A DNA stretch of 64,000 bases from a virus (IMGVR_UViG_3300010373_000001:51611-115610), one strand, 5' to 3'; numbered from the stretch's first letter, positions 19,353 through 59,348 are shown. Made by a program: numbers and translations. The notes: generated from the sequence alone by a model not told the origin.

Positions 19353-19381
19353 ATCATACCAGCCCAGCCCCTTGATGTCAA
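19353..19381 (-). promoter_or_regulatory. SigA/HrdB-type promoter
   Basis: TTGACA-N17-TATGAT with TG extension. Confidence 0.8.
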
Positions 19382-21639: not shown

Positions 21640-21668
21640 ACCCTACCACAAGGGGCCACTCATGTCAA
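21640..21668 (-). promoter_or_regulatory. SigA/HrdB-type promoter
   Basis: TTGACA-N17-TAGGGT. Confidence 0.7.
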
Positions 21669-21735: not shown

Positions 21736-23364
21736 TCACTTCTCCCACGGCCATGCGGCACTATGAGAACGCTCGATAAGATCCATCATCTTGAACGCGC
21801 TATCAGTCAGACCAGCCAACTGATGCCTCCTGCCATTTCCGCTAGGAATGTCTCCCTGAGCGTACCCTGACAGATCGAAAGCGTATAGGTAAGTGCTTTC
21901 GGGAACAGAGTCACTTACGTTACCTCCGTAACCGTACCCACCATAGCTACGGCTTCCCATTGACTGCATGTCAGTGAATACCACTGCCCTCTTGGTAGAT
22001 GGGCTAGTAGTAGTTCTGATTGATTCAGCAGTGTTGGTGCCGTGGCCAACCGCACCGATCATACGGTTAACCTTCTCAATCTGCCTTAGCAGTGAGCCGC
22101 CACGCTCTACCTTTACTTCCCTTACGTTGTCAGCGAAGATGAACAGTCTGCTGTCCGGGTTTCTCATTGCCGTAGCAATACCGAACAACGCCCCTGCTTC
22201 TGCTCTTCTGATGCTGCTCTTGTTAGACATACCCGTATCCATTGACGCCGAAGTGTCAACGTATACGTCAGTTCTGCCGTTAAGCAGCGGAATGTTTCCT
22301 ACTGACAGTGTTAGGGCTTCCTCAAGAGAGTGAGCCCATGCTGTGCTGGAAGCATTCTTGTAAGCTGACCAGTAGCGGAATGGGAACTGCCTGCCCCTAG
22401 CAACAATCTCAGGGTTGCACAGATCAGCCTGTACCTTAGCAATAGTTGCCTTAGATACACCAGCCTCCTGCATGTTCCTCAGGTTTCTCAGCATAGCCAT
22501 GTGGCCAACTGATCCGCCCATGATAAGAGCATCCCACAGCTTACCCTTGTCCAGCTTAGAACCGGCAAGAGATAGCGCATCTTCCCACGTCATACCCGCA
22601 AACTTCAGGGATGAAGGATCAAGCAGAACGCTAGGATCACTCGCAGCCTGAGCGCGAAGATCAGCGTTGAACCTGATCATAGGAAGGTTAGACAAATCGA
22701 AGTCTGCCTCGTTTCCGTAACGACGGGTCATAGCGTAACGGTACAGATCACTCTGACTATCCACGCCAAAGGTTCTTGGGTGAGTCATCTGAATAACGTC
22801 ACCGAAACGCCACCCCTTAGAAGAGGTGTCGTACTTAAGAAGAGAGTACTCGTTGAACAGCCTGTTAGCTGCGTCAGCAAGACCTCTCTTAACAGCAGAA
22901 GGAATAGTCCTGCCGAACTTCTCAGTCCAGTAGGCAGCCAATTCCCCCGGCTCGTCTGCACGCTGGGGAACAGCACTGATAAACAGCCTGTTCATACCCT
23001 TCTCGCCGCGCTCAATAGAACCATCTTCAACACCAGCCGCTAGTCTTGCGTGTACAGCATGAGCCGCACCCATAAGAGAAGCAGTTCTGATGTTACCTTC
23101 CTGACGTAGCCACCTTAGGAAACTCAGCAGCCATGCAGGATCAGTGATAGCAATCTGCTCAACTAGAGCAGTAAATCTCTTGTCGCGGGACTTACCACTC
23201 TCGTAGAAAGTATCTTCTCCCGCGAACATGTTAACGCCAAGGCGGAACAGTTCACCATAGGCGTCATTGACATAACCAGTCCCGCCCTCATAAGTAACCG
23301 CAGGGCCAACCGTCGTAATTGGTGACGTAGCCGTAACGATCTTCTTGGTGTTCAGTCTTGACAT
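21736..23364 (-). CDS. rsr: Ro60/TROVE-domain RNA-binding protein with C-terminal vWA domain
   Basis: EDTFYE, RADEPGE, KRGLADA, KYD, HP, TWE, MAMLRNLRN, PFRYWSAY motifs; MIDAS DTSASM...TD; start moved to ATG 23364 (MSRLN) behind RBS GGAGG. Confidence 0.93.
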   Translation of the reverse strand: MSRLNTKKIVTATSPITTVGPAVTYEGGTGYVNDAYGELFRLGVNMFAGEDTFYESGKSRDKRFTALVEQIAITDPAWLLSFLRWLRQEGNIRTASLMGAAHAVHARLAAGVEDGSIERGEKGMNRLFISAVPQRADEPGELAAYWTEKFGRTIPSAVKRGLADAANRLFNEYSLLKYDTSSKGWRFGDVIQMTHPRTFGVDSQSDLYRYAMTRRYGNEADFDLSNLPMIRFNADLRAQAASDPSVLLDPSSLKFAGMTWEDALSLAGSKLDKGKLWDALIMGGSVGHMAMLRNLRNMQEAGVSKATIAKVQADLCNPEIVARGRQFPFRYWSAYKNASSTAWAHSLEEALTLSVGNIPLLNGRTDVYVDTSASMDTGMSNKSSIRRAEAGALFGIATAMRNPDSRLFIFADNVREVKVERGGSLLRQIEKVNRMIGAVGHGTNTAESIRTTTSPSTKRAVVFTDMQSMGSRSYGGYGYGGNVSDSVPESTYLYAFDLSGYAQGDIPSGNGRRHQLAGLTDSAFKMMDLIERSHSAAWPWEK

Positions 23365-23455
23365 TGTTACCTCCATAGATAACTGAAGCCACTGTCTGAG
23401 CAGCTTCATTGACAATCTGGTCACATAAAACTGCCACATTCAGTGGCTTGAAAGG

Positions 23456-23536
23456 ACCAGAGAAATAATCGAATACAGTATCTTGTGTTATTTGATAGTT
23501 GTAAATAGTGAAGTAACTGTATTCTTCGCATCTGGT
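23456..23536 (-). ncRNA. Y-RNA-like unit 1 (no tRNA cargo)
   Basis: ACCAGA-TGCGAA-GAATACAG-TTACTTC-loop-CTGTATTC-GATTATTTC-TCTGGT. Confidence 0.75.
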
Positions 23537-23555
23537 ATAAATATTTAAATGTAGA

Positions 23556-23684
23556 GCCTGAGAAAAAATTTAGCGGCCGGAAATGAGATGTTATCTCATG
23601 CGGGCTCCACGCCCAGCATCGCCGTGATTGGTGGCGATGAATAGAATCGAACTATTGAAGTATCCGTTTGCATTCACTTCAGGC
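23556..23684 (-). ncRNA. Y-RNA-like unit 2 (tRNA mimic opened at the variable loop)
   Basis: Shared frame; T-arm, capped acceptor CATCGCC-ACCAATCAC-GGCGATG, D-arm GGGC/GCCC, anticodon-like arm ATGAG-7nt-CTCAT. Confidence 0.8.
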
Positions 23685-23693
23685 AAACTTTGA

Positions 23694-23835
23694 TGGCTTA
23701 GAGAAAAAGTCGGAGTCAGAAATTTTTAGCGCTCTGCCAACTGAGCTATACCCCGGTGTTGTCGGGGCAACAGGATTCGAACCTGTGACCTCTCGTTCCC
23801 AATACGAAGTAACTGTTTCCTGCACTTCTAAGCCA
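23694..23835 (-). ncRNA. Y-RNA-like unit 3 (YrlA-like, tRNA-Pro-derived permutation)
   Basis: Shared frame; TTGGGAACGAGAGGTC, T-arm ACAGG-TTCGAAT-CCTGT, capped acceptor, D-arm GCTC-AGTTGGCA-GAGC. Confidence 0.85.
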
Positions 23836-23842
23836 AGATTTA

Positions 23843-23982
23843 TGTTCTGAGAAATAGTCTAGTACGGTGTCTTATGGGCAGGCACTCTACCAATTGAGTT
23901 ACAAGAGTCTATGACTCCAGACAGGATTCGAACCCGCAGCTTCCTGCTATACGGAAGTATCCGTGCTATTCACATCAGAACA
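23843..23982 (-). ncRNA. Y-RNA-like unit 4 (classical YrlA topology)
   Basis: Shared frame; GCAGG/CCTGC stem, T-arm, GAGTC-ATA-GACTC capped acceptor, D-arm ACTC-AATTGGTA-GAGT. Confidence 0.85.
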
Positions 23983-23989
23983 AAACTAG

Positions 23990-24098
23990 TATCAGAGGAA
24001 AAGTCGAAAACGGAAAAGGCACCAGCCCATATACCAGGGAATCGAACCCTTGGTACTCGATTGTTGGAGAGAAGTAACCGTTCTCTTCACATCTGATA
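23990..24098 (-). ncRNA. Y-RNA-like unit 5 (T-loop hairpin cargo)
   Basis: Shared frame; TACCAAGGG-TTCGATT-CCCTGGTA. Confidence 0.8.
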
Positions 24099-24101
24099 TA
24101 G

Positions 24102-24173
24102 AGACACCTACTGGATTCGAACCAGCGTAACAGGTTTTGCAGACCCGTACCTAAACCACTCGGTCAAGGTGCC
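24102..24173 (-). tRNA. tRNA-Cys(GCA)
   Basis: Cloverleaf; loop CT-GCA-AA; U73. Confidence 0.9.
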
Positions 24174-24181
24174 GTAAAGAG

Positions 24182-24333
24182 TGTGCTAGAGGAAAGCTAA
24201 AGAGAGTGGAATATCTATTTCATTTCACTACCGGCTGTTGCCAGCCGACTTGGACTCGAACCAAGAATTATTAATTTACAGTTAATTGTGTTTACCTTTT
24301 AAGAAGTAACCCTCAACAAACACTTCTAGCACA
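24182..24333 (-). ncRNA. Y-RNA-like unit 6 (tRNA mimic opened in the D-loop, intact GUA anticodon arm)
   Basis: Shared frame; GGTAAACAC, ATTAA-CTGTAAA-TTAAT, CTTGG-TTCGAGT-CCAAG, TCGGCTG-GCAA-CAGCCGG, TAGTG. Confidence 0.8.
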
Positions 24334-24346
24334 TTCAGTTATATGC

Positions 24347-24460
24347 CCAGAGGAACAAACTTGATCAGGGAAATTTCGACCTCCGGGCTATGAACCCGGC
24401 GCTCTATCTGAGCTAATGCGCAAATGCTGCGTATGAAGTACCTGTTCAATTCACTTCTGG
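24347..24460 (-). ncRNA. Y-RNA-like unit 7 (tRNA mimic opened at the T-arm, intact CAU anticodon arm)
   Basis: Shared frame; capped acceptor-like ATACGCA/TGCGCAT, D-arm GCTC/GAGC, CCGGG-TTCATAG-CCCGG, AGGTC. Confidence 0.78.
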
Positions 24461-24466
24461 AACTAG

Positions 24467-24539
24467 TAGTCAGTCTGAGATTCGAACTCAGGAACCCTAG
24501 CTTATGAGACTAGTGCCCTATGCCTCTGGCTTACCGACT
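24467..24539 (-). tRNA. tRNA-Met/Ile2(CAT)
   Basis: Cloverleaf; loop CT-CAT-AA; elongator type. Confidence 0.85.
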
Positions 24540-24857
24540 TTATATGGCTAGTTTCCCTCCATAGCCGGGGAGTGATAGAAGGGGCTGTCTGCCCTTAATC
24601 CGGAGAACAGAGTTGACATTGTATCCGGAAACTACGTAATGGCGCTACCCATATCTAATCTCAGAGTGGCCCCTGACTGTTATCCTTTATCCCTCACCAG
24701 TTGGCCTTGGAAACAAAGGGCACTAGATTTACGTATACTTTATGGCCCAGCCTGTTCTGTAGCCATTATTCAGTCACTATCTACAACTCTCCGTCGAGAG
24801 TTGTTAGTGATGGTAACAGTTCTGACACTGTTACCACCTTGGACGGACCAACAATTG

Positions 24858-24929
24858 TCCAGAGGAAATGCCGGTATTAGTTTACGTGTCCGTCCTGGCG
24901 TTGAAGTAACTAAAACCTTCACATCTGGA
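24858..24929 (-). ncRNA. Y-RNA-like unit 8 (short loop cargo)
   Basis: TCCAGA-TGTGAA-GGTTTTAG-TTACTTC...CTAATACC-GGCATTTCC-TCTGGA. Confidence 0.75.
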
Positions 24930-24935
24930 ACTTAG

Positions 24936-25009
24936 TTGCGGAGACAGGATTTGAACCTGTGACCTCTGGGTTATGAGCCCAACGAGCTACCGAACTGCTC
25001 CACTCCGCG
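24936..25009 (-). tRNA. Initiator tRNA-fMet(CAT)
   Basis: C1xA72 mismatch and GGG/CCC pairs in the anticodon stem. Confidence 0.93.
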
Positions 25010-25019
25010 TTGAATTAGA

Positions 25020-25088
25020 ATCAGAGAAATAATCGTTAAGGGTATTTTTTTCTGCTTAAAAGAAGTATCCCGTAACTGCGCTTCTGAT
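25020..25088 (-). ncRNA. Y-RNA-like unit 9 (short loop cargo)
   Basis: ATCAGA-AGCGCA-GTTACGGG-ATACTTC...CCCTTAAC-GATTATTTC-TCTGAT. Confidence 0.75.
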
Positions 25089-25093
25089 CACAG

Positions 25094-25167
25094 TACTCCT
25101 AGAGGGATTCGAACCCTACGCTGCCACCTTGAAAGGGAGGTGTCCTTGGCCGCTAGACGATAGGAGC
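25094..25167 (-). tRNA. tRNA-Glu(TTC)
   Basis: Cloverleaf; loop CT-TTC-AA. Confidence 0.9.
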
Positions 25168-25225
25168 TTATTAGCCGGGCCGAGATTTTCATGGGCAAAC
25201 CAACGTGTCTCGGCCCGACTCTTAC

Positions 25226-25254
25226 AGAGTACCACAGGGGAGCGTCCCTGTCAA
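25226..25254 (-). promoter_or_regulatory. Promoter of the tRNA/Y-RNA/Ro60 operon
   Basis: TTGACA-N17-TACTCT with TG extension. Confidence 0.75.
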
Positions 25255-28870: not shown

Positions 28871-28899
28871 AGCATACCACAGGGGACCGCCCCTGTCAA
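28871..28899 (-). promoter_or_regulatory. SigA/HrdB-type promoter with palindromic spacer
   Basis: TTGACA-N17-TATGCT; ACAGGGG-CGGT-CCCCTGT dyad. Confidence 0.8.
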
Positions 28900-58604: not shown

Positions 58605-59272
58605 GACCTGTGTCCGCAGATTTTTCATTTTATTTTTTCATCCCAGAAACAGAACGAGGATTGTTACCACGCCCATTACCGTGCAGGCAATCACGTAATC
58701 AGTTGCCTTGTCTTGATTCATTGTGAATACTGACAGTAGCATGAACCACAGTTCTGCCATCAAGCAGGCGAAAGCTAGTGTATTCATTGTTCAGATATTC
58801 AGCAGGATAAGTGCGGGAACCATGATTACCACAGCGGCTACCGTGTAAATCACAGCATCAGTCTTACTTGGAGTTCTACTCGCACGCCAGAACAGACCAA
58901 ACTCAATTCCCGCTAGCATGTAACCCAGAAGCGGCAGGTACTTGCTCATCTCTTCATCCTCACTATGGCTGACCCTGCAAATATAATCGCTACGATGCCA
59001 CCAGCTATTACCGGCAGCAATATGTGATTCAGTAGCATAAAGATTGCTGTAAGAATCGCAGTTACCGCGCAGAGGACAAGAAAGATAACATCTACGGTCC
59101 TGTCCCTAACTCTTGTTCTGCTCATTTGCGCTTGCTTAGCGTAATCAGGAACCACAACAGAAAGCAGAGCACAAAACCAATCACTACTGGCAGTACCCAG
59201 CCTGGATATTGCGGACCTGAGTTAATAGCACTTGCCAACATCGTTTCTCTCCCTTATTTTTATTTTACCTAG

Positions 59273-59348
59273 TATCCTCAGCAGGACTCGAACCTGCGCC
59301 TCCATCATGTGAATGATGACGCTCTATGCCATATTAAGCTATGAGGAA
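59273..59348 (-). tRNA. Atypical tRNA with 8-nt anticodon loop (Val-CAC-like)
   Basis: Good D and T arms; TCATC-ATTCACAT-GATGG; U1xU72 mismatch; A73. Confidence 0.65.

What the first reader, a model, noticed from the sequence alone, without database searches (positions are those of the whole stretch)
23456..25088. Array of nine Y-RNA-like genes with a common frame and swappable cargo, in one operon with phage Ro60
Seen in the sequence: nine minus-strand units of 69-152 nt lie between a promoter (25226-25254) and the Ro60/TROVE gene, interleaved with tRNA-Glu, fMet, Met and Cys. Each reads 5'-[stem P1]GA-WGYGMA-[8-9 bp stem P2]-(W)TACTTC-[cargo]-[P2']-pyrimidine-rich 9-mer-TC[P1'], with unit 6 the most divergent. 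P1 and P2 differ in sequence between copies yet stay largely complementary (for example GAATACAG/CTGTATTC, TAGCACGG/CCGTACTA, GTTACGGG/CCCTTAAC). TACTTC is invariant in all nine. Established: Ro60 binds the terminal stem of Y RNAs, bacterial Y RNA genes lie next to rsr, and YrlA RNAs carry a tRNA-mimic module. Inference: this is a modular Ro60 RNP system with one constant protein-binding handle and nine interchangeable effector modules. It could tether different partners or act as a panel of decoys against host anti-phage tRNA nucleases. I know of only small numbers of Y RNAs per Ro60 locus, not an array like this.
Basis: partly seen in the sequence, partly recalled or inferred. Interest (0 to 1): 0.95.

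Follow-up and report, generated by a model that had tools for sequence, protein, structure and literature searches.

The report
Nine Y RNA genes beside phage Ro60
A 116-kb soil-type phage carries nine small RNA genes that share one conserved Ro60-binding "handle" and differ in their inner part. The inner parts are mostly tRNA look-alikes joined to the handle at different points, so this is an unusually large and varied set of known Y RNAs next to the gene for their partner protein.

Summary
Nine minus-strand units (23456-25089) share P1 stem, GA-WGYGMA loop, P2 stem, (W)UACUUC, cargo, P2', a pyrimidine-rich 9-mer and P1'. They are interleaved with tRNA-Glu, fMet, Met and Cys, between a promoter (25226-25254) and a TROVE/Ro60 gene (23364-21736).

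- **Covariation:** Both stems covary, with 14 of 17 pairs changed on both sides in the nine copies and 90% of cells paired over 118 homologous units.
- **Specificity:** A covariance model finds exactly nine copies in the 115.6-kb genome.
- **Linkage:** The model also found about 340 further copies beside about 160 other Ro60 genes. All are on the Ro60 strand, and all but four in phage Atuin are upstream.

The handle carries the published YrlA hallmarks (CGAA-N0-1-G, YUAC). Units 6 and 7 are classical YrlA-type permuted tRNA mimics. These are therefore Y RNAs of the actinobacterial YrlA/YrlB family, not a new class.

What I did not find in print:
- The array size: 9 here, and 8 and 10 in sister phages, against 1-4 in bacteria.
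- The conserved, collinear variety of cargo.
- The different points at which the tRNA mimic joins the handle (anticodon loop, variable loop, in place of the T arm).

Ro60 binding, expression and function are untested. This scan has noted comparable handle-plus-cargo arrays beside Ro60-like genes on other DNA.

The parts
25226..25254 (-). Promoter: TTGACA, 17 nt, extended -10 TGgTACTCT
   Evidence: Pattern TTGACA-N16-19-TANNNT occurs 13 times in the window against 2.1 expected; this is one of them. Function is inferred.
25174..25219 (-). GC-rich leader hairpin (GUCGGGCCGAGA ... UCUCGGCCCGGC) between the promoter and the first tRNA
   Evidence: Read from the sequence. Role unknown.
25093..25167 (-). 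tRNA-Glu(UUC)
   Evidence: ARAGORN and Rfam tRNA, 47.7 bits.
25019..25089 (-). Y RNA unit u1 (71 nt): handle plus a 19-nt unstructured A/U-rich cargo
   Evidence: R1 62.5 bits. P1 GAUCAGA/UCUGAUU, loop AGCGCA.
24935..25009 (-). Initiator-type tRNA-Met(CAU)
   Evidence: ARAGORN and Rfam, 64 bits. C1-A72 mismatch and GGG/CCC anticodon stem read from the alignment.
24858..24929 (-). Y RNA unit u2 (72 nt): handle plus a 22-nt cargo
   Evidence: R1 57.6 bits. P1 UCCAGA/UCUGGA.
24569..24801 (-). manA-like structured RNA inside the operon (below the Rfam threshold)
   Evidence: RF01745 42.2 bits, gathering score 55.2, E 5e-9 for the 2.1-kb search. Similar sub-threshold hits in BRock and Alone3 tRNA clusters.
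24466..24539 (-). tRNA-Met(CAU), second copy
   Evidence: ARAGORN and Rfam, 46.9 bits.
24346..24461 (-). Y RNA unit u3 (116 nt): cargo is a closed acceptor-like hairpin, a D arm (UAGCUCA..GAGCG), an anticodon-like arm (loop UUCAUAG) and AGGUC. P2 stands where the T arm would be.
   Evidence: Unconstrained MFE gives a four-way junction of P2, AS, D and anticodon arm. The same type occurs at the same array position in L018, L023 and L032, with compensatory changes. R1 87.2 bits.
24182..24333 (-). Y RNA unit u4 (152 nt, most divergent handle): A/U-rich 5' cargo, T arm, 7-bp acceptor-like stem with GCAA loop, atypical third hairpin
   Evidence: R1 60.4 bits. Fold. Cargo counterparts L023:2940 and L032:2853, identity 0.71 and 0.67.
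24101..24173 (-). tRNA-Cys(GCA)
   Evidence: ARAGORN and Rfam, 56.8 bits.
23990..24098 (-). Y RNA unit u5 (109 nt): cargo with a T arm and a small hairpin only
   Evidence: R1 97.9 bits. Fold. Counterpart L023:3636, identity 0.76.
23843..23982 (-). Y RNA unit u6 (140 nt): classical YrlA-type cargo, a tRNA mimic opened at the anticodon loop and closed at the acceptor end
   Evidence: Rfam YrlA 31.2 bits over the full model. ARAGORN calls a tRNA on the circularised cargo with a 9-nt 'intron' at the junction.
23694..23835 (-). Y RNA unit u7 (142 nt): classical YrlA-type cargo (T arm, 7-bp acceptor-like stem, D arm UAGCUCAGUUGGCAGAGCG)
   Evidence: Rfam YrlA 32 bits. ARAGORN calls a tRNA on the circularised cargo at default settings, with the junction in the anticodon loop. 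R1 97.7 bits.
23556..23684 (-). Y RNA unit u8 (129 nt): full cloverleaf (T arm, 7-bp acceptor stem whose loop starts ACCA, D-like arm, anticodon-like arm) joined to the handle at the variable loop
   Evidence: Unconstrained MFE gives P2 plus four hairpins. ARAGORN finds a 73-nt tRNA on the circularised cargo, with the junction in the variable region. The counterpart L023:3757-3886 has the same topology and GCCA after its acceptor strand.
23456..23536 (-). Y RNA unit u9 (81 nt): handle with a perfect 8-bp P2 and loop UGCGAA, plus a 31-nt unstructured cargo
   Evidence: R1 70.6 bits..
23424..23447 (-). Weak terminator-like hairpin plus U-run between the array and Ro60 (possible attenuator)
   Evidence: Consensus scan. 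Not above the shuffle expectation.
21736..23364 (-). Ro60/Rsr-like protein gene (542 aa; TROVE with a C-terminal vWA-type region)
   Evidence: Pfam PF05731 3.4e-17. PDB 9KOP/9L5Y, Thermus phage Ro60, 2.9e-22. 37-40% identity to actinophage 'Ro-like RNA binding protein'. 4095 homologs at E<=1e-20.
21640..21668 (-). Next promoter of the same family, marking the downstream limit of the unit

Best explanation
The region is a phage operon: promoter, tRNA-Glu, Y1, tRNA-fMet, Y2, a manA-like RNA, tRNA-Met, Y3, Y4, tRNA-Cys, Y5-Y9, then Ro60. It encodes nine Y RNAs of the actinobacterial YrlA/YrlB family.

**Shown by sequence comparison**
- All nine share one two-helix handle: P1, an asymmetric internal loop (5' G-R-W-G-Y-G-M-A, 3' a pyrimidine-rich 9-mer), P2, then the invariant UACUUC.
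- The helices covary.
- The handle occurs only beside Ro60 genes.
- The cargo is a conserved, position-specific set of tRNA-derived modules.

**Inferred**
- The precursor is cut up by the host tRNA-processing enzymes at the interleaved tRNAs. Y units start 2-5 nt after tRNA 3' ends.
- Single-strand endonuclease and exonuclease trimming acts at the 7-19-nt A/U-rich spacers.
- Each mature RNA binds the phage Ro60 ring through the handle.
- The cargo acts as the effector or adaptor module, as in the bacterial Ro60-Y RNA-PNPase complexes.

Most likely the particles couple Ro60 to host 3'-5' exoribonucleases or tRNA-binding enzymes. This would allow them to survey, degrade or protect structured RNA, above all the phage's own 34 tRNAs, during infection. 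Different cargoes would give different partners or orientations. The identity as Ro60-linked Y RNAs is well supported. The cellular function is the weakest step.
For: **Anatomy and covariation**
- 78% of cells paired against at most 48% when slid, and 14 of 17 pairs compensatory.
- Over 34 units from eight loci, 87% are paired. Over 118 units from 27 loci, 90% are paired.
- G8, G11 and UACUUC are invariant or nearly so in all 118 units. U, C, U, U and C are 118/118 and A is 116/118.

**Specificity**
- Exactly nine hits in the window and in the whole genome.

**Linkage to Ro60**
- In five complete phage genomes (722 kb), all 22 hits lie beside the Ro-like gene and none lies elsewhere.
- In 80 IMG/VR Ro60 loci, all 171 hits are on the Ro60 strand and upstream.
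- In 80 actinobacterial chromosomal loci, all 150 hits are on the rsr strand and upstream.

**YrlA hallmarks (PMC4201824)**
- Location within 4 kb of Ro60 on the same strand.
- CGAA-N0-1-G near the 5' end. Here this is YGMA, an optional 1-nt insert in u4 and u8, then G.
- YUAY opening the cargo (UUAC, AUAC or GUAC).
- T, acceptor-like and D arms with the conserved UAGCUCA..GAGC D arm.
- Sub-threshold Rfam YrlA hits on u6 and u7.
- ARAGORN calls a tRNA on 31 of 89 circularised cargos, and on one more in normal order, against 0 of 890 shuffled controls.

**Precedents**
- M. smegmatis YrlA and YrlB are cut from one precursor upstream of rsr, and both are bound by Rsr.
- Thermus phage phiLo Ro60 binds two adjacent Y-like RNAs and host PNPase.

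**Operon limits**
- Promoters of one family at 25254 and 21668, with no convincing terminator between them.

**Conserved synteny**
- Glu-Y-Met-Y..Cys-Y..Ro60 recurs in L018, L023 and L032.
Against: - There is no expression, processing or binding data.
- No unit reaches the Rfam YrlA gathering score (31-32 bits against 69). Chromosomal actinobacterial rsr-linked units fail it too.
- The literal GNCGAA motif is complete only in part. CGAA occurs in u9 alone and the other units have UGAA, CGCA, UGCA or UGUU.
- Three units (u1, u2, u9) have no recognisable effector structure.
- The genome has no RtcB, RNA ligase or CCA-adding enzyme by Pfam, so an RNA-repair context is not visible.
- A hairpin plus U-run at 23424-23447 could uncouple Ro60 from the array.
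- The covariation counts on A3 and A6 come from model-fitted alignments, which lean towards the structure.
Confidence: 0.8

Rival explanations
1. The RNAs are Ro60-bound Y RNAs as above, but their main job is to act as a panel of tRNA decoys. The tRNA-shaped cargoes would soak up or misdirect host tRNA-targeting defence nucleases or tRNA-modifying enzymes, protecting the phage's own tRNA set.
For: - The phage invests in 34 tRNAs, and the array sits inside the tRNA clusters.
- Cargoes present different faces of a tRNA. The elbow with T and D arms is shown in u6 and u7.
- A free anticodon-like arm with a canonical 7-nt loop is shown in u3 (UUCAUAG) and u8 (AUAACAU).
- The counterpart L023:3757 has a perfect CUCAUAA loop.
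Against: - The commonest cargo type lacks an anticodon loop altogether, so it cannot decoy anticodon nucleases.
- The loop sequences of the u3 type are not conserved between relatives: UUCAUAG, UUCAUAC, GCGG and CUCAAAA.
- The same handle-plus-tRNA-mimic RNAs sit upstream of rsr in 80 actinobacterial chromosomes, where an anti-defence role makes no sense.
- No defence target is identified.
Confidence: 0.2
2. Some units are not stable Y RNAs but genes for unusual tRNAs. The handle would serve as a processing scaffold that is removed or nicked. This would yield permuted or two-piece tRNAs that may be charged, such as u8 with its encoded ACCA, or an ordinary tRNA released from inside the handle, as in L032:3145-3287.
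For: - The u8 cargo is a complete 73-nt cloverleaf with a 7-bp acceptor stem followed by ACCA. None of the 34 normal tRNAs encodes CCA.
- The counterpart in L023 has a different acceptor stem but again N-CCA.
- M. smegmatis YrlA is cut by RNase P in its acceptor-like loop and receives CCA in vivo.
- In L032 and L023, one handle encloses an unpermuted tRNA scoring 63 and 51 bits.
Against: - The CCA feature is absent from the u8-type units of L032 and L018.
- Anticodon and acceptor sequences are not conserved, so no amino-acid identity is maintained.
- Units u1, u2 and u9 have no tRNA part, yet they keep the handle best.
- The strict linkage of the handle to Ro60 is unexplained by a pure processing role.
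- No RNA ligase is encoded.
Confidence: 0.07
3. The units are decaying tRNA pseudogenes, or tRNA-operon spacers with conserved processing signals, with no dedicated function and no relation to Ro60.
For: - They lie in a tRNA operon and several contain tRNA fragments.
- Some relatives have been annotated as tRNAs in GenBank: Alone3 'tRNA-Ser' and Frankenweenie 'tRNA-Pro'.
Against: - The real tRNAs of the window are not flanked by the handle. There are nine model hits only.
- The handle is found only beside Ro60 genes in whole phage genomes.
- The helices covary, and six nucleotides are near-invariant across 118 units from phages and bacteria.
- Cargo types are conserved and collinear across phages with about 46-49% Ro60 identity.
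- Cargoes show no specific similarity to the phage's own tRNAs.
Confidence: 0.03

Closest known systems
Mycobacterium smegmatis YrlA and YrlB upstream of rsr (Chen et al. 2014, PMC4201824)
   Same: - Actinobacterial lineage.
- Several Y RNAs in tandem upstream of Ro60 on the same strand, cut from one precursor.
- A CGAA-type motif near the 5' end.
- YrlA carries T, acceptor-like and D arms opened at the anticodon stem.
- YrlB is a smaller RNA with at most a T arm (compare u5).
- RNase P cleavage and a CCA end in the acceptor-like loop (compare u8).
   Different: - Two RNAs, not nine.
- No interleaved tRNAs are described.
- No cargo attached at the variable loop or in place of the T arm.
- Binding to Rsr was shown there and is not shown here.
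Salmonella Typhimurium YrlA/YrlB (Rfam RF02553; crystal structure 6CU1, bioRxiv 10.1101/312249)
   Same: - Modular build: a Ro60-binding stem plus a tRNA-like effector module.
- YUAY at the junction.
- Conserved D and T stems.
   Different: - Encoded 3' of rsr in the RtcR-controlled rsr-yrlBA-rtcBA repair operon.
- The phage has no RtcB or RtcA.
- The phage units score only 31-32 bits on the Rfam model.
Thermus phage phiLo Ro60 with Yrl1 and Yrl2 (PMC12135203)
   Same: - A phage-encoded Ro60, the closest solved relative of this protein.
- Y-like RNAs with a CGAA loop just upstream.
- Shown to bind Ro60 and host PNPase in vitro.
   Different: - Two RNAs.
- No tRNA-like cargo is reported.
- No tRNA operon.
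Unannotated Y RNA arrays of cultured actinophages (Streptomyces phages BRock, Alone3, pSt2308; Arthrobacter phage Atuin)
   Same: - The same handle, including UACUUC.
- The same position beside the 'Ro-like RNA binding protein' gene inside a tRNA cluster.
- 4-6 units with mixed cargo.
   Different: - Fewer units.
- In Atuin, four units lie downstream of Ro60.
- The units are not annotated, or are annotated as tRNAs, in the records.
Deinococcus radiodurans Yrn1/Yrn2 and the Ro60-Y RNA-PNPase machine
   Same: It is the working model for function: the Y RNA tethers the Ro60 ring to an exoribonuclease and gates the ring.
   Different: - A separate Y RNA lineage with a metazoan-like binding helix.
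- Two to a few RNAs.
- The tRNA-like features are arranged differently.
Multi-copy Y RNA families of animals (four human Y RNAs; nematode stem-bulge RNAs) - from my own knowledge, not checked here
   Same: Several paralogous RNAs share one Ro60-binding stem and differ in the loop module.
   Different: - The genes are dispersed or loosely clustered, not an operon with Ro60.
- They have no tRNA-like modules.

Membership tests
YrlA/YrlB-type bacterial and phage Y RNAs (Chen et al. 2014; Rfam RF02553) | Encoded within about 4 kb of a Ro60/TROVE gene on the same strand | tested here: met
   All nine units lie 92-1725 nt upstream of the Ro60 start on the same strand. The same holds for about 340 homologous units in about 160 loci.
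YrlA/YrlB-type bacterial and phage Y RNAs (Chen et al. 2014; Rfam RF02553) | Terminal stem formed by the 5' and 3' ends, supported by covariation | tested here: met
   P1 is 6-9 bp and P2 about 8 bp. 14 of 17 pairs are compensatory in the nine units. 90% of cells pair over 118 units, against at most 47% when slid.
YrlA/YrlB-type bacterial and phage Y RNAs (Chen et al. 2014; Rfam RF02553) | GNCGAA-N0-1-G motif near the 5' end (proposed Ro60 contact) | tested here: inconclusive
   Family consensus over 118 units is G-R-W-G-C/U-G-A/C/U-A-(N0-1)-G. This matches CGAA-N0-1-G including the optional spacer, but the first G of the published motif is U or A here. In the window only u9 has CGAA. The others have UGAA, CGCA, UGCA or UGUU.
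YrlA/YrlB-type bacterial and phage Y RNAs (Chen et al. 2014; Rfam RF02553) | YUAY at the start of the cargo or V loop | tested here: met
   (U/A/G)UACUUC in all nine units. Within UACUUC, U, C, U, U and C are invariant in 118 of 118 units and A in 116 of 118.
YrlA/YrlB-type bacterial and phage Y RNAs (Chen et al. 2014; Rfam RF02553) | tRNA-like module with T arm, closed acceptor-like stem and D arm, opened at the anticodon stem (YrlA proper) | tested here: met
   Met by u6 and u7. u4 meets it in part. Not met by u1, u2, u5 and u9, which are YrlB-like, nor by u3 and u8, which have other topologies.
YrlA/YrlB-type bacterial and phage Y RNAs (Chen et al. 2014; Rfam RF02553) | Score at or above the Rfam gathering threshold (69 bits) | tested here: not met
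   u7 scores 32.0 and u6 31.2 bits. The test is weak: no rsr-linked unit in 12 actinobacterial chromosomal loci or 4 phage loci reached it either.
YrlA/YrlB-type bacterial and phage Y RNAs (Chen et al. 2014; Rfam RF02553) | Bound and stabilised by the Ro60 protein; present as discrete small RNAs | not testable with these tools
Ro60/Rsr (TROVE-domain ring protein) | TROVE (HEAT-repeat ring) domain, plus full-length similarity to characterised Ro60 proteins | tested here: met
   PF05731 3.4e-17, above the cut-off. Thermus phage Ro60 structure 9KOP, 2.9e-22. Full-length 37-40% identity to phage Ro-like proteins. Many homologs also carry the vWA family PF13519. I did not model the fold.
Canonical tRNA genes (considered for the cargoes) | Contiguous cloverleaf with free 5' and 3' acceptor ends, detectable by tRNA finders in the native order | tested here: not met
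   ARAGORN and Rfam call only the four interleaved tRNAs in the region. The cargoes of u6-u8 are called only after circular permutation.

The most novel reading that the evidence does not exclude
The Ro60 handle is a general docking module that phages use to display a whole repertoire of tRNA shapes, each attached at a different point of the cloverleaf.

At least one member, the u8 type, would be matured by RNase P into a two-piece tRNA that ends in its encoded CCA while staying tethered to the Ro60 ring. It has a complete cloverleaf joined at the variable loop, with N-CCA after the acceptor strand in two phages.

Such a tethered tRNA could be charged, or could engage tRNA-binding enzymes, ribosomes or tRNA-targeting defence nucleases. 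The array would then be a programmable set of tRNA baits rather than simple nuclease tethers.
Probability: 0.12. Interest if true: 0.85.

Novelty: new variant of a known kind. Interest (0 to 1): 0.62.

Why it matters
Y RNAs with tRNA-like modules have been known in bacteria and a few phages since 2014, but nobody knows what the tRNA-like module binds or does.

This phage clade offers a natural experiment. Nine to ten paralogues share one handle, each with a conserved cargo, and the cargoes present a tRNA fold from different attachment points or carry none.

Because the same handle and smaller arrays (4-6 units) exist in cultured, freely available actinophages (BRock, Alone3, Atuin), partners could be found by pulling down individual units.

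The result also shows that Ro60 loci of actinobacteria commonly carry up to four Y RNAs. It shows too that some 'tRNA' annotations in phage records are really Y RNA cargo.

Tried and rejected
- **Near-identical phages:** megablast of the locus against GenBank phages gave only a 40-nt tRNA match. A single-protein scan of IMG/VR gave nothing. An alignment-based scan worked.
- **Rfam at gathering threshold:** no YrlA in the window or in 16 related loci.
- **Recent capture of cargo from the phage's own tRNAs:** rotated cargoes align to the 34 tRNAs no better than tRNAs align to each other. Rejected as unsupported.
- **RNA-repair context:** no RtcB, RNA_ligase or PolyA_pol/CCA-adding family in the genome.
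- **manA-like element:** MAFFT plus RNAalifold of four copies gave no convincing consensus. Left as a side note.
- **u8-type consensus fold over four phages:** only P1 and the T arm aligned. The topology claim for u8 therefore rests on the window and L023 alone.
- **Coding potential:** the four short ORFs overlapping the array have no Pfam match.
- **Literature:** searches for Y RNA arrays in phages found multiple YrlA-like hits per genome mentioned only in passing (355 RNAs in 276 genomes). They found no description of large arrays.


Full report
**What is there**

The minus strand between 25254 and 21736 reads, in order:
- a promoter, TTGACA-17 nt-TGgTACTCT, at 25254-25226;
- a GC-rich leader hairpin;
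- tRNA-Glu(UUC);
- unit u1;
- an initiator-type tRNA-Met;
- u2;
- a roughly 320-nt stretch holding a manA-like structured RNA;
- a second tRNA-Met;
- u3 and u4;
- tRNA-Cys;
- u5 to u9;
- a weak hairpin with a U-run;
- a 542-codon TROVE/Ro60 gene behind a GGAGG ribosome-binding site.

The promoter belongs to a family of 13 sites in the window, against 2.1 expected. The next member sits just past the Ro60 stop at 21668-21640. A single transcription unit is therefore the natural reading, but it is inferred.

The window is part of a 115,610-bp viral record with direct terminal repeats.

- TACTTC occurs nine times on the minus strand in the region.
- Unit limits found by extending P1 are 71, 72, 116, 152, 109, 140, 142, 129 and 81 nt.
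- MAFFT aligns the two flanks of all nine units without help.
- On that alignment P1 and P2 pair in 78% of cells, against 32-48% when the 3' partner is slid.
- 14 of 17 pairs show changes on both sides.
- No shuffle of 500 reaches the observed pairing or covariation.
- A covariance model of the nine (R1) scores them at 53-98 bits. The next best site in the window scores 11.5 bits. The whole genome holds nine copies.

**What it is**

The handle is not private to this phage. R1 finds it beside the Ro-like gene of cultured actinophages:
- 6 units in Arthrobacter phage Atuin;
- 5 in Streptomyces phages pSt2308 and Alone3, the latter with a sixth at E 0.003-0.008;
- 4 in BRock;
- 2 in Quantum, Frankenweenie and Gordonia phage Rabbitrun.

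Linkage to Ro60 is strict:
- In five complete genomes of these phages (722 kb), every hit lies next to the Ro-like gene and none lies elsewhere.
- In 80 IMG/VR loci found with a Ro60 alignment, all 171 hits are on the Ro60 strand and upstream of it.
- In 80 actinobacterial chromosomal loci (Micromonosporaceae, Streptomyces, Actinomadura, Dactylosporangium and others), all 150 hits are again upstream on the rsr strand, 1-4 per locus.

Over 118 units from 27 loci the helices pair in 90% of cells, against at most 47% when slid. These counts come from a model-fitted alignment. Positions G8, G11 and UACUUC are essentially invariant.

The family consensus of the 5' loop is G-R-W-G-Y-G-N-A-(N0-1)-G. 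This contains the CGAA-N0-1-G that Chen et al. proposed as the Rsr contact. UUAC/AUAC is their YUAY at the start of the variable region.

Units u6 and u7 give sub-threshold Rfam YrlA hits (31-32 bits). They have the T arm, the closed acceptor-like stem and the conserved UAGCUCA..GAGC D arm of YrlA.

The Rfam threshold of 69 bits is not reached. It is not reached by any of the chromosomal actinobacterial units either, so that failure says little.

I conclude that these are Y RNAs of the actinobacterial YrlA/YrlB lineage. In M. smegmatis, members of this lineage are bound by Rsr and cut from one precursor.

**The cargo**

Unconstrained folds, and ARAGORN run on circularised cargo, give four kinds.

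1. *No stable structure:* u1, u2 and u9, with 19-31 nt of cargo.
2. *T arm only, or T arm plus acceptor-like stem:* u5 and u4.
3. *The classical YrlA topology:* u6 and u7. This is a tRNA closed at the acceptor end and opened at the anticodon loop. The same topology was called in 24 of the 89 cargos of 40 nt or more (118 units surveyed).
4. *Two unusual topologies:*
   - u8 is a complete 73-nt cloverleaf whose junction with the handle falls in the variable loop. Its 7-bp acceptor stem is followed by ACCA.
   - u3 has an acceptor-like hairpin, the conserved D arm, an anticodon-like arm with a 7-nt loop and AGGUC. P2 stands where the T arm would be.

Shuffled controls gave 0 tRNA calls in 890 sequences.

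Comparative support for the two unusual topologies:
- The u3 type recurs at the same array position in three related phages, with compensatory changes in its arms.
- The u8 topology recurs in L023, with an unrelated acceptor sequence and again N-CCA.
- The CCA is absent from the corresponding units of L032 and L018.
- None of the 34 ordinary tRNAs of the window encodes CCA. All end in discriminator plus a single C.
- In L032 and L023, one further unit encloses an unpermuted tRNA.

**How unusual the array is**

Counts with R1 are lower bounds.
- Most phage loci have 1-4 units. L058 has 5 and L018 has 6.
- Two roughly 116-kb contigs share the window's tRNA synteny (Glu, Met, Met, Cys upstream; Gly, Ser, Ser, Lys, Glu, Val downstream). 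L032 has 8 units and L023 has 10.
- The window therefore belongs to a clade with expanded arrays and is not the largest.

Cargo of most window units is more similar to a positional counterpart in those phages than to any other unit of its own array. Examples are u5 at 0.76, u7 at 0.76, u4 at 0.71 and u8 at 0.68, against 0.52-0.67 within the array. This holds although the Ro60 proteins are only 46-49% identical. The diversification is therefore old and maintained, which argues for specialised roles. The margins are modest.

**Mechanism**

*Shown:*
- a conserved, covarying two-helix handle;
- exclusive linkage to Ro60;
- conserved cargo types;
- tight packing with tRNAs. Units begin 2-5 nt after tRNA 3' ends, and spacers elsewhere are 7-19 nt and A/U-rich.

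*Inferred:*
- transcription from the 25254 promoter;
- release of units by RNase P and tRNA 3'-end processing at the tRNAs, and by endonuclease plus exonuclease trimming elsewhere;
- binding of each unit to the Ro60 ring through the handle;
- use of the cargo as an effector module.

The published models are tethering of Ro60 to PNPase for structured-RNA decay, and gating of the ring. I take them as the most likely function here, probably directed at tRNA or other structured RNA during infection.

A decoy role against tRNA-targeting defences is possible. It fits poorly with three facts: most cargoes lack an anticodon loop, the loop sequences are not conserved, and the same RNAs occur in bacterial chromosomes.

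The genome encodes no RtcB, RNA ligase or CCA-adding enzyme.

**Novelty**

The kind is known. Chen et al. reported YrlA-like RNAs in 254 bacteria and 22 phages. They noted that some genomes had several (355 RNAs in all). A Thermus phage Ro60 has been shown to bind two adjacent Y-like RNAs.

I found no paper describing any of the following:
- arrays of this size;
- their interleaving with tRNAs;
- handle-only members;
- tRNA mimics joined to the handle at the variable loop or in place of the T arm.

Earlier notes of this scan report comparable handle-plus-cargo arrays beside Ro60-like genes in other phages. Those are unchecked AI notes, not publications.

**Limits**

- There are no RNA or binding data.
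- The host is unknown. An actinobacterium is likely from the Ro60 relatives and the promoter type, but this is inferred.
- The large covariation counts rest on model-fitted alignments.
- The unusual topologies of u3 and u8 rest on thermodynamic folds, ARAGORN and two to four related sequences.

Noticed in passing
window 24569-24801 (-); L005:7052-7215; L004:6922-7154: A manA-like structured RNA (Rfam RF01745; 42, 50 and 48 bits, just under the 55.2 gathering score) sits inside the Ro60 operon here. It also sits between tRNA-Lys genes near Ro60 in Streptomyces phages BRock and Alone3. A four-sequence consensus fold was inconclusive.
   Followed up: partly
window 24888-24895 and 24841-24848 (-): The cargo of u2 (GGACGGAC) is perfectly complementary to GUCCGUCC, which lies 10 nt past the 3' end of u2. 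This could be a pseudoknot or an alternative pairing that links u2 to the downstream manA-like RNA. It could also be chance (roughly 2-5%).
   Followed up: no
window, all 34 tRNA genes (17004-59348): Every tRNA gene ends with discriminator plus one C. None continues with a second C or with CCA. That is 0 of 34 with C at the next position, against about a quarter expected. It suggests a constraint from the 3'-end processing route.
   Followed up: partly
L032:3145-3287 and L023:3173-3301: In two sister phages, one Y handle encloses an unpermuted, complete tRNA. Rfam tRNA scores are 63.4 and 50.8 bits. ARAGORN calls Tyr-GUA and an anticodon UUA, which would read the UAA stop codon.
   Followed up: partly
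L004:4729-4802 (Alone3 gene 36) and L009:4706-4796 (Frankenweenie gene 148): The features annotated in GenBank as tRNA-Ser(gct) and tRNA-Pro(tgg) lie inside Y RNA units (L004:4723-4870, L009:4722-4879). They are probably tRNA-like cargo, not tRNAs.
   Followed up: partly
window 7206-62523 (13 sites, e.g. 19353-19381, 21640-21668, 28871-28899): A phage promoter family TTGACA-N17-TGnTAnnnT with GC-rich spacers occurs 13 times against 2.1 expected, mostly on the minus strand ahead of tRNA clusters.
   Followed up: partly
L099 (Catelliglobosispora koreensis chromosome, NZ_KB903249.1:568371-575927): About 20 tRNA genes are packed directly upstream of the rsr gene and its two Y RNAs. This may be a prophage or a tRNA island built like the phage locus.
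   Followed up: no
L007:4687-4883 (Gordonia phage Rabbitrun): One Y unit of 197 nt carries two T arms. This looks like a double tRNA-like cargo within a single handle.
   Followed up: no
window 59272-59348 (-): ARAGORN reports a tRNA of unknown identity with a two-base 'anticodon' (ca). Rfam scores it 44 bits. It is an odd tRNA-like gene far from the main clusters.
   Followed up: no
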